Assembly (NCBI GenBank): GCA_964607805.1
Contig: CAZSLF010000005.1
Coordinates: 1-49,271 of the forward strand
DNA from: an uncultured Candidatus Saccharibacteria bacterium
GTDB taxonomy: Bacteria > Patescibacteriota > Minisyncoccia > Phycocordibacterales > CAIZLB01
Length of the DNA stretch: 49,271 nucleotides
Direction of reading: 5' to 3'
Shown: positions 38,138 through 43,778 of the stretch, piece by piece
Layout: every line of letters begins with the position of its first letter
How positions within the stretch are numbered: position 1 is the stretch's first letter
Program-made: the position numbers and the translations under genes
Notes under the pieces: generated by a model
Told to the model about the DNA's origin: nothing
The model's database searches: none
Seen by the model: the letters and a program-made list of their open reading frames with translations, nothing else

Positions 38138-39538
38138 ATGTTGTCTCATTTTCGAGCTAAATTTAGTATTAAAAAAATATTTGTTTTGTCTATGCTCACA
38201 CTTTGCTTAGTGAGTGTTTTAGTGGGTTCTTTTTCTATCGGAACAAAATCCGCTTTAGCTCAAACTACAAATGCTAATGGTTTAACTCCAGAGCAAGAAG
38301 CTGCACTTCGCGCGGAATTGGCAGATGTTGAGAATCAGATCAAGGAGCAGTCAAAAATTCTAGATGCCAAAAAGGGAGAAGGAACGTCGATTGCGCGAGA
38401 TATCGCCATTCTCAATGCTCAAATTAAAACTGCTCAACTAAAAATCCGATCTCATGAGCTTTCAATTAATAAATTAGGAAAGGATATTACAGTTAAATCA
38501 AATACAATTAAGTCGCTTAACGAAAGAATTGACGATGGAAAAGTTTCTCTTGCTGATGTTGTTCAAAGAACTAGGGAAATGGACGACTTCACCCTAATCG
38601 AAGCTATGTTAAGCAATCAAGATGTTTCTGAATTCTTCGTCGATGTTGATTCATATACATCTATCAAAAAATCTCTTCAAGTAAAATTGGCAGATGTTCG
38701 CGATGCTAAATCTCAGAACGAAACTGCTAAAAAAGAGCTTGATCAAAAGCGAAATCAAGAAATTGATTTGAAAGTAAATGTTGAGGCTGAGCAAGCAAAA
38801 ATTAAAGTGGCAGAAGCAGAAAAGAAGAGGCTTCAGACTTTAAATAAAAATGAGCAGTTGAATTATCAGACTGTAATTCAAAACAAGCAGGCGAGAGCAA
38901 CACAAATTAGAAATCAACTTTTCAAATTGCGTGATGCTGAAGCTATCAAATTCGGAGACGCTGTAACTTTGGCTAAGAAAGCATCAGCTGCAACTGGTGT
39001 TCGCGCAGCATATATTCTCGCTATTATTCAACAAGAAAGTAATCTTGGTGCGAACGTTGGCCAGTGTTATCTAACTGACGCTACAACAGGTGCAGGAGTC
39101 GGAAAAAATTCAGGAAAAGTTTTCTCAAATCTTATGAAAGCTAGTCGAGATGTGCAACCTTTTATGCGAATTACGCAGGCACTAGGCCGTGATCCATATA
39201 AGACAGTCGTATCTTGTCCTCTTAGTGTTGGTTATGGAGGGGCAATGGGTCCCGCGCAGTTTATTCCATCTACATGGGCACTCTTCGAAACTAAAATCGC
39301 AGCCCAGGTTGGACGACCAGCCTCTGACCCTTGGAACCCTGAGGACGCCTTCATGGCCTCTGGTATGTATCTTGCTGACTTAGGTGCCGCTAGTCAGTCT
39401 TTCACTTCTGAGCGAAACGCTGCTTGTAGATACTATTCAGGACGATCATGTTCAGGAAATAGTACTTTCTATGGGGATCAGGTTATGGCGAGGGTAAAGT
39501 CTATTCAAGACAACATAGACATTCTACAAAACTTGTAG
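38138..39538 (+). CDS. Secreted coiled-coil protein with C-terminal lytic murein transglycosylase (MltB/SLT_2-like)
   Basis: Signal/TM segment, long PcsB-like coiled coil, then AI..QESN.G, GGAMGPAQFIPSTW, DPWNPEDA, Y.S...YG..V. Start placed 7 nt after TG-A-TACAAT. Confidence 0.88.
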   Translation: MLSHFRAKFSIKKIFVLSMLTLCLVSVLVGSFSIGTKSALAQTTNANGLTPEQEAALRAELADVENQIKEQSKILDAKKGEGTSIARDIAILNAQIKTAQLKIRSHELSINKLGKDITVKSNTIKSLNERIDDGKVSLADVVQRTREMDDFTLIEAMLSNQDVSEFFVDVDSYTSIKKSLQVKLADVRDAKSQNETAKKELDQKRNQEIDLKVNVEAEQAKIKVAEAEKKRLQTLNKNEQLNYQTVIQNKQARATQIRNQLFKLRDAEAIKFGDAVTLAKKASAATGVRAAYILAIIQQESNLGANVGQCYLTDATTGAGVGKNSGKVFSNLMKASRDVQPFMRITQALGRDPYKTVVSCPLSVGYGGAMGPAQFIPSTWALFETKIAAQVGRPASDPWNPEDAFMASGMYLADLGAASQSFTSERNAACRYYSGRSCSGNSTFYGDQVMARVKSIQDNIDILQNL

Positions 39539-39542
39539 CAAT

Positions 39543-39606
39543 AAAACTTATACCTTATAAAATCTAACGCATTTCACCGAATTAGATTTTATAAGGTATA
39601 AGTTTT
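39543..39606. repeat. Perfect palindrome P1 (25-bp arms, 14-nt loop)
   Basis: AAAACTTATACCTTATAAAATCTAA-CGCATTTCACCGAA-TTAGATTTTATAAGGTATAAGTTTT. Confidence 0.95.
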
Positions 39607-39779
39607 TTGCACAGTTTTGTACATACATGTTGTCTTGGATAGATTTATGCTCGACTTGTTAGTTTAGATAGTTCCGCGTAGGTGAGCAGTCGTGCGCTCG
39701 GGGAAGCCGCGAGCTTGCGGAGATGTGGTAAATATGCGAATGTAATTGTCATAACTAAGCGCCGCGCCAAAACCTGTTT

Positions 39780-39849
39780 TGCATTAATTATACTATCAAA
39801 AATATAATTCGGTGGAACACGTTATATTTTTGATAGTATAATTAATGCA
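39780..39849. repeat. Perfect palindrome P2 (28-bp arms, 14-nt loop), inverted homologue of P1
   Basis: TGCATTAATTATACTATCAAAAATATAA-TTCGGTGGAACACG-TTATATTTTTGATAGTATAATTAATGCA. Confidence 0.95.
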
Positions 39850-39852
39850 CCA

Positions 39853-40638
39853 ATGACTAAAGAATTCTGGAACAAAGAATATAAAGACCCACAGCATTTG
39901 ACTATGAGTAAGGAGCCAGCTTCTGATCTTTTAGATTTTGTAAAATGGGCGAAGAGGAACGCAGAGTGGCCAGCTTTTCCAAAGCATGGAACTATTGTTG
40001 ATATTGGTTGTGGAAACGGTCGCAATCTAGTGCCTCTTTGTCTTGAATTTAATATGAACGGACTAGGCACAGATATTTCAGACGTTGCACTTTCGCAGGC
40101 TAAAAATATGATTGCTGAAACTCGCGCAGAACTTGAAGCAGAAGGTATTAAATCAAATCCTGGACTAAAAATTGAATTTAAAAGACAGGGCGCTGAAGAA
40201 CCTATCGATATGCCGGACCAAAGTGTCGATGTTGTTTTTGATATGATGGTTTCTCATCAATTGCCTAAGGCTGATCGCGAAGCGCTTGCTCGCGAGATTG
40301 CACGACTCGTAAAACCTTATGGTTGGTTATTTTTCAAAACATTTATTTTAGATGGTGATATAAACGCTCGTCGCATGATTGAAGAACATACAATTACGAA
40401 CGAAGCGATTTTAAAAAATCCAAAACTTGCAGATGAAGACGGTAAGCCAGAAAAAAATTCATATATTCATCCGCATACTCGTGGTATGGAGCATGTGTAT
40501 AGTGAAGATGAAATAATTGAGCTATTTAGTCCATTTTTCAAAATTTTTAAAATGAAGAAATCTTACAAACATGTTCTCGACGGCAAACCTCATAAAAGAA
40601 GGACGGTTTCGGTGTATATGGAGAGGTTGAGGGATTAA
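39853..40638 (+). CDS. Class I SAM-dependent methyltransferase
   Basis: VDIGCGNGRN, G.DIS, D.VFD.MVSH, L.KP.GWLFFK. Confidence 0.88.
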   Translation: MTKEFWNKEYKDPQHLTMSKEPASDLLDFVKWAKRNAEWPAFPKHGTIVDIGCGNGRNLVPLCLEFNMNGLGTDISDVALSQAKNMIAETRAELEAEGIKSNPGLKIEFKRQGAEEPIDMPDQSVDVVFDMMVSHQLPKADREALAREIARLVKPYGWLFFKTFILDGDINARRMIEEHTITNEAILKNPKLADEDGKPEKNSYIHPHTRGMEHVYSEDEIIELFSPFFKIFKMKKSYKHVLDGKPHKRRTVSVYMERLRD

Positions 40639-43700: not shown

Positions 43701-43778
43701 AATTTAGGCTCTCAAGTTTCCATTTTCTAAATGAGACTGAGTCGCATTTAGAAAATGGAGTTTAAAGAGTTTGAAATT
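43701..43778 (+). other. Long imperfect RNA hairpin downstream of prfA
   Basis: Perfect 15-bp core (43719-43733/43745-43759) extended by stems with G-U pairs that work only on the plus strand. Confidence 0.6.

What the first reader, a model, noticed from the sequence alone, without database searches (positions are those of the whole stretch)
39543..39850. 308-bp element bounded by two homologous, mutually inverted perfect palindromes with covarying stems and a shared 14-nt loop
Seen: P1 (25-bp arms) and P2 (28-bp arms) are each perfectly Watson-Crick. Their arms match at 17 of 25 aligned positions, and all 8 differences are compensated on the opposite arm. The loops read TTCGGTGAAATGCG (P1, minus strand) and TTCGGTGGAACACG (P2, plus strand), 11 of 14 identical. 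Consensus: TTATAC-N5-AAAATNTAA-TTCGGTGRAAYRCG-TTANATTTT-N5-GTATAA. The core between them is GC-rich with small hairpins. CAAT flanks both ends; removing the element and one CAAT gives TAG-CA-ATG, a tight operon junction. Known: conserved loops on variable stems are the recognition mode of HUH enzymes (rolling-circle origins, IS200/IS605, REP/RAYT) and of ssDNA-hairpin recombination (integron attC). I do not recognise this motif from any of them. Inference: the ends of an undescribed non-autonomous element, or an invertible or cruciform switch. It supplies a terminator to the upstream gene and a -10 to the downstream methyltransferase.
Basis: partly seen in the sequence, partly recalled or inferred. 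Interest (0 to 1): 0.8.

Follow-up and report, generated by a model that had tools for sequence, protein, structure and literature searches.

The report
Private twin-hairpin insert between two genes
Two long perfect DNA hairpins bracket a 314-base insert found only in this tiny-genome bacterium. It sits between two genes that abut in every relative and was built partly from the upstream gene's own tail. It most likely ends one transcript and starts the next, rather than being a jumping or flipping element.

Summary
P1 (39543-39606) has 25-bp perfect arms and P2 (39780-39849) has 28-bp perfect arms. The arms match at 17 of 25 positions with all 8 differences mirrored, and the 14-nt loops are inverted copies that agree at 11 of 14.

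- **Real insertion.** Eight relatives keep the SLT-to-methyltransferase junction at 0-68 bp with no hairpins.
- **No sign of mobility.**
  - Only these two hairpin copies exist in the genome.
  - I found no homologue in about 60 relatives, 400 genomes of the class, 185,000 species genomes, phages or plasmids.
  - The assembly has no HUH (Y1) gene and the contig has no recombinase.
- **Blurred boundary.** P1 continues as a roughly 68-pair hairpin whose right side (39607-39656) is an inverted copy of the native SLT gene tail. A third, degenerate copy lies left of P2.
- **P2 is a promoter.** Its right arm carries the TATAAT box of the leaderless methyltransferase mRNA, in a genome whose promoters are -10-only. 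Its left arm is a mirror-image twin.
- **Related hairpins.** A second twin-hairpin cassette (C1:118860-119111) shares a rare 12-mer with P2.

Best reading: a low-copy palindromic repeat built in place by inverted copying (template switching), now serving as a terminator-plus-promoter insulator.

The parts
39487..39542 (+). Native 3' end of the SLT-domain gene (stop TAG at 39536-39538) plus CAAT. It forms the outer 5' arm of the extended P1 hairpin.
   Evidence: ORF 38114-39538 matches SLT_2. The C-terminal peptide ...IQDNIDILQNL is conserved in relatives. It pairs with 39607-39656 in 43 pairs, 40 of them Watson-Crick.
39543..39606 (.). P1: a perfect palindrome with 25-bp arms and the 14-nt loop CGCATTTCACCGAA (plus strand), followed by TTTTTTG. 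It is terminator-like for the SLT transcript.
   Evidence: The simple terminator scan did not call it because the stem is AT-rich and the loop exceeds 8 nt.
39607..39656 (-). Inverted (antisense) copy of the SLT gene tail, about 85% identical with small indels. It forms the outer 3' arm of the extended P1 hairpin.
   Evidence: The self-match of 39489-39606 (minus) to element positions 1-111 is 81%. See also alignment A1. The RNA fold of 39480-39665 gives -78.3 kcal/mol, z -13.2.
39626..39763 (.). Orphan core, up to 51% GC in a 37-38% GC genome. It is not palindromic, folds no better than shuffles, and has no homologue.
39764..39779 (+). Degenerate third copy of the SLT-tail motif (CAAAACCTGTTT against the native CAAAACTTGTAG). 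It forms the inner extension of the roughly 80-nt inverted repeat between the two ends.
   Evidence: Repeat D9, alignment A1, and the P1 versus reverse-complemented P2 alignment (z 13.8).
39780..39849 (.). P2: a perfect palindrome with 28-bp arms and the 14-nt loop TTCGGTGGAACACG. It carries two mirror-image -10 boxes: TATAAT at 39837-39842 (plus strand, outward) and at 39792-39787 (minus strand, inward).
   Evidence: Promoter matrix scores are 9.7 (plus) and 10.0 (minus), against a training median of 8.3 and a background 99.9th percentile of 7.2.
39837..39855 (+). Leaderless-type promoter and start of the methyltransferase gene: TATAAT, 10 nt, then ATG at 39853.
   Evidence: TATAAT-N6-10-ATG is enriched genome-wide (94 of 906 TATAAT sites). 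Arm-like sequences in relatives are promoters set directly before ATG. The methyltransferase start is conserved in orthologues.

Best explanation
The 314-bp gap between the SLT gene and the methyltransferase gene holds a private, low-copy palindromic repeat that was largely built where it sits.

**Origin (inferred).** Inverted copying of local DNA produced it. This means replication template switching or fold-back synthesis, the mechanism known to create perfect stems, multi-base 'compensated' changes and loop inversions in single events. That process made a long hairpin out of the SLT gene tail and its 3' flank (extended P1). A diverged, loop-inverted copy of that hairpin became P2.

**Maintenance (inferred).** The arms of each hairpin are kept identical at the DNA level, so the stems are perfect and contain no G-U pairs.

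**Present function (inferred).** The pair probably works as an insulating cassette.
- Extended P1 is about 68 paired positions followed by a U-run. It would end or 3'-protect the SLT transcript, and it would be a substrate for a double-strand RNase.
- The outer arm of P2 is the -10-only promoter that starts a nearly leaderless methyltransferase mRNA.
- The inner arm of P2 is a mirror-image promoter. It may fire an antisense transcript through the core toward P1.

No dedicated enzyme is needed.

**Shown here:** the anatomy, the insertion relative to relatives, the inverted copy of the native gene tail, and the promoter fit.
For: 1. **Lineage-specific insertion.** Eight relatives have junctions of 0-68 bp and no hairpins.
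2. **Built from local sequence.**
   - 39607-39656 is an inverted copy of the native SLT tail, whose peptide is conserved in relatives.
   - A third copy of the tail motif lies next to P2.
3. **DNA-level symmetry.**
   - All 53 inner pairs are Watson-Crick with no G-U pairs.
   - Five of the eight differences cluster in positions 12-16, as block events would.
4. **Genome context.** About 17 perfect palindromes with stems of 17-28 bp occur in 0.84 Mb. Many are A/T-tract-flanked terminators behind tRNA genes, with diverged but perfect stems.
5. **Promoter.**
   - TATAAT sits 6-10 nt before the ATG at 94 sites, and 316 candidate promoters carry no -35 information.
   - Both P2 arms score above the median of those promoters.
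6. **No mobility signals.**
   - Two hairpin copies only, and no homologue.
   - No Y1 gene, and no recombinase on the contig.
7. **Published mechanism.** Template switching creates and maintains perfect hairpins, produces multi-base compensatory changes and inverts loops (PMC8794818). It also homogenises and expands inverted-repeat arms near promoters (PMC13100816).
Against: - The roughly 140-nt GC-rich core has no local source, so pure local copying does not explain the whole insert.
- The inner 25 bp of P1 are perfect while the outer 50 bp are about 85% identical. The chance of 0 mismatches in 25 at that rate is about 0.007. This requires either ongoing homogenisation or selection on the inner stem, or two separate events.
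- A second cassette with the same layout exists at C1:118860-119111: stop codon, hairpin, 118-bp core, hairpin carrying a -10 box, and loops inverted within the pair. It has a different loop sequence, and P2 shares the rare 12-mer GATA(G/C)TATAATT with it. All 4 genomic occurrences of that 12-mer are these arms, and none was found in 400 other genomes. A repeated architecture hints at a dedicated process or element family.
- No transcript or read data could be examined. The terminator and promoter roles are therefore inferred.
- P1 is AT-rich with a 14-nt loop, unlike this genome's usual terminators with GC-rich tops and 3-4-nt loops. The simple scan did not call it.
Confidence: 0.5

Rival explanations
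1. It is a non-autonomous hairpin element of a Patescibacteria-specific kind. A small conserved hairpin tip (inner stem plus loop, about 32 nt) inserts or propagates, then clamps itself with an inverted copy of whatever native DNA lies beside it. An unknown trans-acting enzyme, or the tip's own ability to nucleate fold-back synthesis, would move it.
For: - The layout is host 3' end, loop, antisense copy of host 3' end, core, then a second sense copy. The hairpin behind tRNA-Glu(CTC) has the same layout: tRNA 3' end, a 25-nt loop, then the antisense copy.
- A second twin cassette on C1 and a solo hairpin on C3 share one 23-nt tip on diverged stems.
- P2 and the C1 hairpin share a rare outer-stem 12-mer but have different tips, which is a mosaic pattern.
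- The element is absent from all orthologous sites.
- Earlier AI notes describe tip-plus-mirrored-flank hairpins in other CPR (candidate phyla radiation, i.e. Patescibacteria) genomes. These are leads only.
Against: - The C5 tip has only two adjacent copies. It is absent from 60 relatives, 400 genomes of the class and 185,000 species genomes.
- The covariance model of the tRNA-linked inserts does not hit this element.
- The C1 cassette has no target duplication (sequence).
- The assembly has no HUH gene, and no recombinase is nearby.
- Homology among the C1-type copies extends beyond the tip into the outer flank. They therefore look like diverged copies of one long hairpin rather than one tip on unrelated stems.
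Confidence: 0.22
2. The element is a small-RNA gene. The inner -10 box of P2 (minus strand, 39792-39787) would start a roughly 240-nt RNA, antisense in direction to the flanking genes, that ends at P1 (hairpin followed by UUUUAUUG on the minus strand).
For: - The inner arm scores as well as the real methyltransferase promoter (10.0 against 9.7).
- P1 is symmetric and is followed by a U-run on both strands.
- The C1 cassette has the same arrangement, with a C-rich core on the strand antisense to the flanking genes.
Against: - The core folds no better than shuffles on either strand.
- It has no homologue in any relative and no Rfam match beyond generic hairpin noise.
- No expression data were available.
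Confidence: 0.12
3. It is an invertible DNA switch. A site-specific recombinase would cross over in the shared TTCGGTG/CACCGAA loop cores and flip the 226-bp segment between them.
For: Inverted repeats bracket a segment of fimS-like size just upstream of a gene. The genome encodes two large serine recombinases and one tyrosine recombinase.
Against: - The recombinase genes are on other contigs (C17, C21, C10), not on C5.
- Crossover in the loops would join arm A to arm B', which differ at 8 of 25 positions. That would destroy both perfect palindromes, and frequent flipping is incompatible with their perfection.
- The methyltransferase promoter lies in the outer arm, outside the segment, so flipping would not switch the gene.
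- The only other assembly holds the same orientation.
Confidence: 0.04
4. The hairpins are single-strand DNA recognition sites of an HUH enzyme or integron integrase: a rolling-circle origin, IS200/IS605 or REP ends, or attC.
For: Long hairpins with asymmetric loops sit in an intergenic position directly after a stop codon.
Against: - The assembly has no Y1/HUH family match, while the control genomes do.
- The loops are in opposite orientation. Strand-specific systems need the same orientation on one strand.
- The stems are perfect, with no extrahelical bases and no RYYYAAC/GTTRRRY cores.
- Only two copies exist.
Confidence: 0.04
5. It is an assembly or amplification artefact, a fold-back chimera.
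For: Perfect inverted duplications are a known chimera type. The source is a metagenome-assembled genome.
Against: - The element lies mid-contig with unique flanks on both sides and intact genes.
- A separately built Logan contig is identical over 4.6 kb.
- The outer palindrome has diverged (about 85% with indels), which an artefact would not show.
Confidence: 0.02

Closest known systems
Hairpins created and kept perfect by replication template switching (quasipalindrome correction; PMC8794818, PMC13100816)
   Same: - It contains a reverse-complement copy of adjacent native sequence.
- The stems are perfect Watson-Crick.
- Several 'compensated' differences arise together.
- The loop is inverted between the two copies.
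- The palindrome has expanded next to a promoter.
   Different: - The scale is much larger: 25-28-bp perfect arms, about 68 paired positions, and an 80-nt inverted repeat between the ends.
- It includes a 140-nt orphan core.
- A second cassette with the same layout exists in the genome.
Correia/NEMIS elements of Neisseria and similar bacterial MITEs (recalled from the literature, not tested here)
   Same: - It is a short inverted-repeat element in an intergenic or operon junction.
- It forms a long mRNA hairpin.
- It can terminate transcription and can supply outward -10 boxes.
- It is absent from orthologous sites in relatives.
   Different: Correia elements occur in hundreds of copies with defined 26-bp terminal repeats and a TA duplication. 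Here there is one element, no family, only a weak 4-bp repeat, and ends that include copies of the host gene tail.
REP/BIME/REPIN palindromic repeats with RAYT transposases
   Same: Paired, oppositely oriented hairpins sit directly after stop codons inside operons. A plausible role is 3'-end protection or termination.
   Different: REPs are shorter and imperfect, occur in tens to hundreds of copies, and go with a Y1 (RAYT) gene. None of these holds here.
The twin-hairpin cassette at C1:118860-119111 and the solo hairpin at C3:50699-50754 of the same genome
   Same: - The layout is the same: stop codon, long perfect hairpin, 118-173-bp core, then a long perfect hairpin carrying TATAAT in both arms.
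- The loops are inverted within the pair.
- P2 and the C1 hairpin share GATA(G/C)TATAATT.
   Different: The loop is unrelated (23 nt, CTGCTACGCTTCGCTATKCGCAT). The C1 cassette has no copy of the upstream gene tail. In that family the loops are much better conserved than the stems (22 of 23).
Invertible promoters (fimS, hin, Bacteroides invertons)
   Same: The size is about 300 bp, inverted repeats sit at both ends, and the position is just upstream of a gene.
   Different: There is no adjacent recombinase. The repeats are 70-nt palindromes rather than short identical crossover sites. The promoter lies outside the segment that would flip.

Membership tests
REP/BIME/REPIN (RAYT-mobilised) | Tens to hundreds of copies per genome | tested here: not met
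   Two hairpin copies in 840 kb. None in 60 relatives or 400 genomes of the class.
REP/BIME/REPIN (RAYT-mobilised) | A Y1 HUH (RAYT) gene in the genome | tested here: not met
   PF01797 finds nothing in the own genome but hits 6 of the control genomes. Caveat: the assembly is 79% complete.
IS200/IS605 ends (PATE) | Both end hairpins on the same strand in the same orientation, plus a TnpA Y1 gene | tested here: not met
   The loops are mutually inverted. No Y1 gene was found.
Integron attC | Imperfect stem with extrahelical bases and RYYYAAC/GTTRRRY cores at the foot | tested here: not met
   The stems are perfect. The feet read AAAAC/GTTTT and TGCA/TGCA.
MITE (Correia-like) | Terminal inverted repeats | tested here: met
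   39543-39625 against 39764-39849, about 75% identical, z 13.8.
MITE (Correia-like) | Target-site duplication at clean boundaries | tested here: inconclusive
   CAAT lies on both sides. It is only 4 bp, and the palindrome homology crosses the left boundary into the SLT coding tail.
MITE (Correia-like) | Multiple dispersed copies or relatives elsewhere | tested here: not met
Inverton (site-specific invertible promoter) | Both orientations present in the population | not testable with these tools
The single other contig has the same orientation.
Inverton (site-specific invertible promoter) | Invertase gene nearby | tested here: not met
   The serine recombinases are on C17 and C21 and the tyrosine recombinase is on C10. 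None is on C5.
Leaderless -10-only promoter of this genome (P2 outer arm) | TATAAT 6-10 nt upstream of the start ATG | tested here: met
   TATAAT at 39837-42 and ATG at 39853, a spacing of 10 nt. The genome-wide peak is at 6-10 nt. The matrix score is 9.7 against a training median of 8.3.
Intrinsic terminator (P1) | Stable hairpin immediately followed by a U-run | tested here: inconclusive
   A 25-bp stem (68 paired positions when extended; -78 kcal/mol for 39480-39665) is followed by TTTTTTG. The stem is AT-rich and the loop is 14 nt, so the simple scan does not call it.
tRNA-linked structured inserts of this genome (GAYGAGAAAG...GGGGTCG...GTGACCGA core) | Conserved folded core | tested here: not met
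   Covariance model R1, built from 7 copies, gives no hit in 39480-39860, nor in the C1 or C3 elements.
tRNA-linked structured inserts of this genome (GAYGAGAAAG...GGGGTCG...GTGACCGA core) | Antisense and second sense copies of the host gene's 3' end | tested here: met
   Antisense copy at 39607-39656 and a degenerate sense copy at 39764-39779.
Template-switch-born hairpin | One arm is native sequence and the other is its reverse complement. No G-U pairs; changes come in blocks. | tested here: met
   The native SLT tail is mirrored. The inner stems have 53 of 53 Watson-Crick pairs. The ancestral short junction is seen in relatives.

The most novel reading that the evidence does not exclude
P1, P2 and the C1/C3 hairpins of this genome may belong to an undescribed kind of protein-less, self-extending DNA element of Patescibacteria. 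In this reading, a small conserved hairpin tip lodges at gene ends. It nucleates fold-back copying of the neighbouring native DNA, including gene tails and promoters. It keeps re-copying that DNA, which creates perfect locus-specific stems, duplicates promoters as mirror images, and pairs up as twin cassettes that rewire operon junctions.
Probability: 0.15. Interest if true: 0.8.

Novelty: new member of a known kind. Interest (0 to 1): 0.4.

Why it matters
If the best reading holds, this is a clear natural example of palindrome-generating replication errors remodelling gene regulation in a minimal genome. A tight two-gene junction was split by a hairpin built from the upstream gene's own tail, and the downstream gene gained a private leaderless promoter that is half of a perfect palindrome.

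It also shows that 'perfectly covarying stems' in such genomes need not mean RNA-level or enzyme-level selection.

The recurring twin-hairpin layout at a second locus, with shared sequence blocks, keeps open a more interesting possibility: that ultra-small bacteria harbour hairpin elements which copy their flanks. Transcript-end mapping and population metagenomics could test this directly.

Tried and rejected
**Known RNA families.** Rfam gave nothing at gathering thresholds. At permissive thresholds only plant and animal miRNA hairpin models matched, which is generic hairpin noise.

**Searches for other copies**
- **Whole-element DNA search in 60 relatives:** only short AT-rich noise.
- **Loop-plus-stem pattern scan of 185,000 species genomes:** one chance hit, in a Gallionellaceae MAG, with no hairpin.
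- **C1-type loop scan of the same collection:** none.
- **Covariance model of the P1/P2 hairpin over 400 genomes of the class:** three hits, all unrelated AT-rich hairpins with other loops.
- **Phage and plasmid collections, searched with the core:** nothing meaningful.
- **blastn and tblastx of the core against the own genome and orthologous loci:** nothing.

**Tests of specific ideas**
- **Whole element as one large palindrome:** the core is not symmetric (72 of 500 shuffles score as well).
- **Membership in the tRNA-linked insert family:** the covariance model gives no hit.
- **Linked enzyme:** no Y1 gene, and the recombinases are on other contigs. A hairpin near the C17 recombinase lies inside its coding sequence.
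- **Neighbouring genes:** Pfam finds nothing for the two ORFs after the methyltransferase or for the ORF inserted at this junction in genome G004.
- **parS or SOS-box half-sites in the loops:** only half-site resemblance by eye. I did not pursue this.

**Strain variants.** The exact methyltransferase protein is not on record. The L25 and SLT proteins lead only to one identical Logan contig.

**Reads.** I did not try to reach reads by another route.

Full report
**1. The observation**

The sequence is as described.
- P1 spans 39543-39606 with 25-nt perfect arms. P2 spans 39780-39849 with 28-nt perfect arms. Each has a 14-nt spacer.
- The arms agree at 17 of 25 aligned positions, and all eight differences are mirrored on the opposite arm.
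- The loops are inverted copies that agree at 11 of 14 positions.
- CAAT lies on both sides.
- A scan of the whole 840-kb genome shows P2 and P1 are the longest and third-longest perfect hairpins.
- A separately built Logan contig from run SRR12762304 is identical over 4.6 kb including the element. An assembler artefact is therefore unlikely.

Three points of the description need correcting.
- Loop identity (79%) is not really higher than arm identity (68%).
- The core does not fold better than shuffled sequence on either strand.
- The palindromes are not cleanly bounded (see section 3).

**2. Context**

The window is a whole contig of a 0.84-Mb, 38% GC, roughly 79%-complete genome. Its size, and the earlier notes on this same genome, point to Patescibacteria.
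- Upstream lies a 474-aa SLT-domain transglycosylase gene ending at 39538. Downstream lies a 261-aa class I SAM methyltransferase gene starting at 39853.
- The gene pair is conserved. Three same-genus genomes have gaps of 62, 17 and about 40 bp. Five metagenomic relatives range from overlapping genes to 68 bp. None contains hairpins.
- A fourth genus member has a different insert of about 940 bp, carrying an orphan ORF, at the same junction.

**3.

- The self-match and alignment A1 show that 39607-39656 is an inverted copy of 39487-39542. That stretch is the last ~17 codons of the SLT gene plus CAAT. The copy is about 85% identical with small indels.
- The peptide encoded there (…IQDNIDILQNL) is conserved in relatives. 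The coding copy is therefore native and the downstream copy is derived from it.
- As RNA, 39480-39665 folds into one helix of about 68 paired positions (-78 kcal/mol, z -13).
- A third, degenerate copy of the tail motif (CAAAACCTGTTT) lies immediately left of P2.
- The inverted repeat between the two ends is therefore about 80 nt long: 39543-39625 against 39764-39849 (z 13.8).
- The remaining 140-nt core is GC-rich and not symmetric. It has no match in the genome, relatives, phages or plasmids.
- Because copies of native coding sequence lie inside the 'element', its ends were at least partly made in place. The 4-bp CAAT repeat is weak evidence for transposition.

**4. Promoter and terminator**

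- In this genome TATAAT sits 6-10 nt upstream of the ATG of long ORFs at 94 of 906 sites, against a background of about 3 per position.
- A matrix built from 316 such sites has information only at the -10 box and none at -35. The organism uses -10-only promoters and leaderless mRNAs.
- The methyltransferase fits: TATAAT at 39837-42, 10 nt, then ATG.
- The short BLAST hits of the P2 arm in relatives are likewise promoters set directly before start codons.
- Both arms of P2 score above the median of real promoters (9.7 and 10.0). P2 is therefore a mirror-image pair of -10 boxes. One drives the methyltransferase and the other points into the core.
- P1 is followed by a U-run on both strands, which makes it terminator-like. 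It is atypical, though: the stem is AT-rich and the loop is 14 nt, so the simple scan misses it.
- These roles are inferred.

**5. Tests for mobility or a dedicated enzyme**

- The loop-plus-stem motif occurs only twice in the genome.
- There is no homologue in 60 relatives or 185,000 species genomes (one chance hit, checked).
- A covariance model of the hairpin found nothing related in 400 genomes of the class.
- PF01797 (Y1/HUH) is absent from the assembly.
- The two large serine recombinases and the single tyrosine recombinase lie on other contigs.
- For an inverton, crossover in the loops would join arm A to arm B', which differ at 8 of 25 positions. That would break both perfect palindromes. 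The methyltransferase promoter would also lie outside the flipped segment.

**6. A wider pattern in the genome**

A genome-wide screen found a second twin-hairpin cassette at C1:118860-119111.
- It has 18-bp and 26-bp perfect arms, and its 23-nt loops are inverted copies identical at 22 of 23.
- The layout is the same: stop codon, hairpin, 118-bp core, then a hairpin with TATAAT in both arms.
- A solo hairpin with the same loop lies at C3:50699-50754.
- P2 and the C1 promoter-side hairpin share GATA(G/C)TATAATT. All four genomic occurrences of this 12-mer are these arms. The palindromised form is absent from 400 other genomes of the order.
- The C1-type copies share sequence beyond the tip (CTGKGGATAAC).

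The genome also holds about 17 perfect palindromes with stems of at least 17 bp. Most are A/T-flanked terminators behind tRNA genes, with diverged yet perfect stems. Perfectly 'compensated' stems are thus a property of this genome, not of this locus alone.

The tRNA-linked structured inserts form a distinct family. A covariance model built from seven copies does not hit the C5, C1 or C3 elements. One of them, behind tRNA-Glu(CTC), shows the same motif as P1: host 3' end, loop, antisense copy.

**7. Explanation**

The evidence best fits a low-copy palindromic repeat created and kept symmetric by DNA-level inverted copying.
- Template switching is documented to create perfect stems in one step, to produce multi-base compensatory changes and to invert loops (PMC8794818). 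It also homogenises and expands inverted-repeat arms near promoters (PMC13100816).
- This accounts for the mirrored native gene tail, for 53 of 53 Watson-Crick pairs with no G-U, for the block-like differences, and for the inverted loops. No enzyme needs to be invoked.
- Functionally, the insert now separates the two genes. P1 provides a long 3' hairpin and probable terminator. P2 provides a private leaderless promoter.

I put this at about 0.5. Three things remain unexplained:
- the origin of the GC-rich core;
- the contrast between the perfect inner stem and the decayed outer stem of P1;
- the recurrence of the twin layout on C1.

These keep alive the rival that a hairpin-tip element copies its flanks (about 0.2). 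Earlier AI notes on other CPR genomes suggest the same idea. I treat those notes as leads, not evidence.

**8. Verdict**

The finding is a new, private member of the known kind 'intergenic palindromic repeats or template-switch-born hairpins with terminator and promoter effects'. It is moderately interesting, mainly as part of a genome-wide habit of building perfect hairpins from native flanks.

Noticed in passing
G000 contig C1:118860-119111 (L003 4861-5112): A second twin-hairpin cassette lies between a 916-aa gene's stop codon and a promoter with a GAAC-N4-GTTC box. It has 18-bp and 26-bp perfect arms, and its 23-nt loops are inverted copies (22 of 23). The 118-bp core is C-rich on the plus strand. 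Its promoter-side hairpin shares GATA(G/C)TATAATT with P2.
   Followed up: partly
G000 contig C3:50699-50754 (L025 5700-5755): A solo hairpin (16-bp perfect arms, extended by GGGATAAC/GTTATCCC) carries the same 23-24-nt loop as the C1 pair. It sits 18 nt upstream of a response-regulator gene start and just after a bidirectional terminator.
   Followed up: partly
G000: behind tRNA-Trp, Tyr and Leu(CAA) on C1; Ser(ACT) and Ser(GCT) on C3; Ser(TGA) and Val(TAC) on C14: This is a family of roughly 110-nt structured inserts. Each follows a perfect palindromic terminator and ends in a copy of the tRNA 3' end. The conserved blocks are GAYGAGAAAGNCGGA, GAGNCGGGGTCG and GTGACCGA. tRNA-Glu(CTC) on C4 has a different variant with a hairpin made of the tRNA 3' end and its antisense copy.
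   Followed up: partly
whole genome G000: There is a strong leaderless-mRNA signature. TATAAT lies exactly 6-10 nt upstream of the ATG at 94 sites. 316 candidate promoters carry no -35 information.
   Followed up: yes
window 43719-43759; also C20:3749-3785 and C20:8897-8933: A repeated hairpin (TCCATTTTCTAAATG-AGACTGAGTCG-CATTTAGAAAATGGA) has the same 11-nt loop at three places in the genome.
   Followed up: no
L014 (G004:C4), between the SLT and methyltransferase orthologues: A same-genus genome has about 940 bp at this junction. It holds an orphan ORF of roughly 193-222 aa with its own promoter-like sequence and terminator and no Pfam match. The junction is a recurrent insertion point.
   Followed up: partly
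window 39931-39943: TTAGATTTTGTAA inside the methyltransferase coding sequence matches arm A' of P1 (TTAGATTTTATAA) at 12 of 13 positions. This may be chance in AT-rich DNA.
   Followed up: no
G000 C11:1532-1602 and C11:23095-23139: There are clustered copies of AAACTATATAT and its complement forming overlapping hairpins. They may be iteron-like repeats.
   Followed up: no
G000 C30:590-642 and C30:1955-2007: Two identical hairpins with 10-bp stems and the same 33-nt loop lie 1365 bp apart in direct orientation on a 2.6-kb contig.
   Followed up: no
L037 (G508:C1:58394-58600): In a distant genome of the same class, the ribosomal protein L36 gene is bracketed by AT-rich AGAAAATAGAAAAT-type hairpin repeats. 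They are unrelated in sequence to P1 and P2.
   Followed up: no
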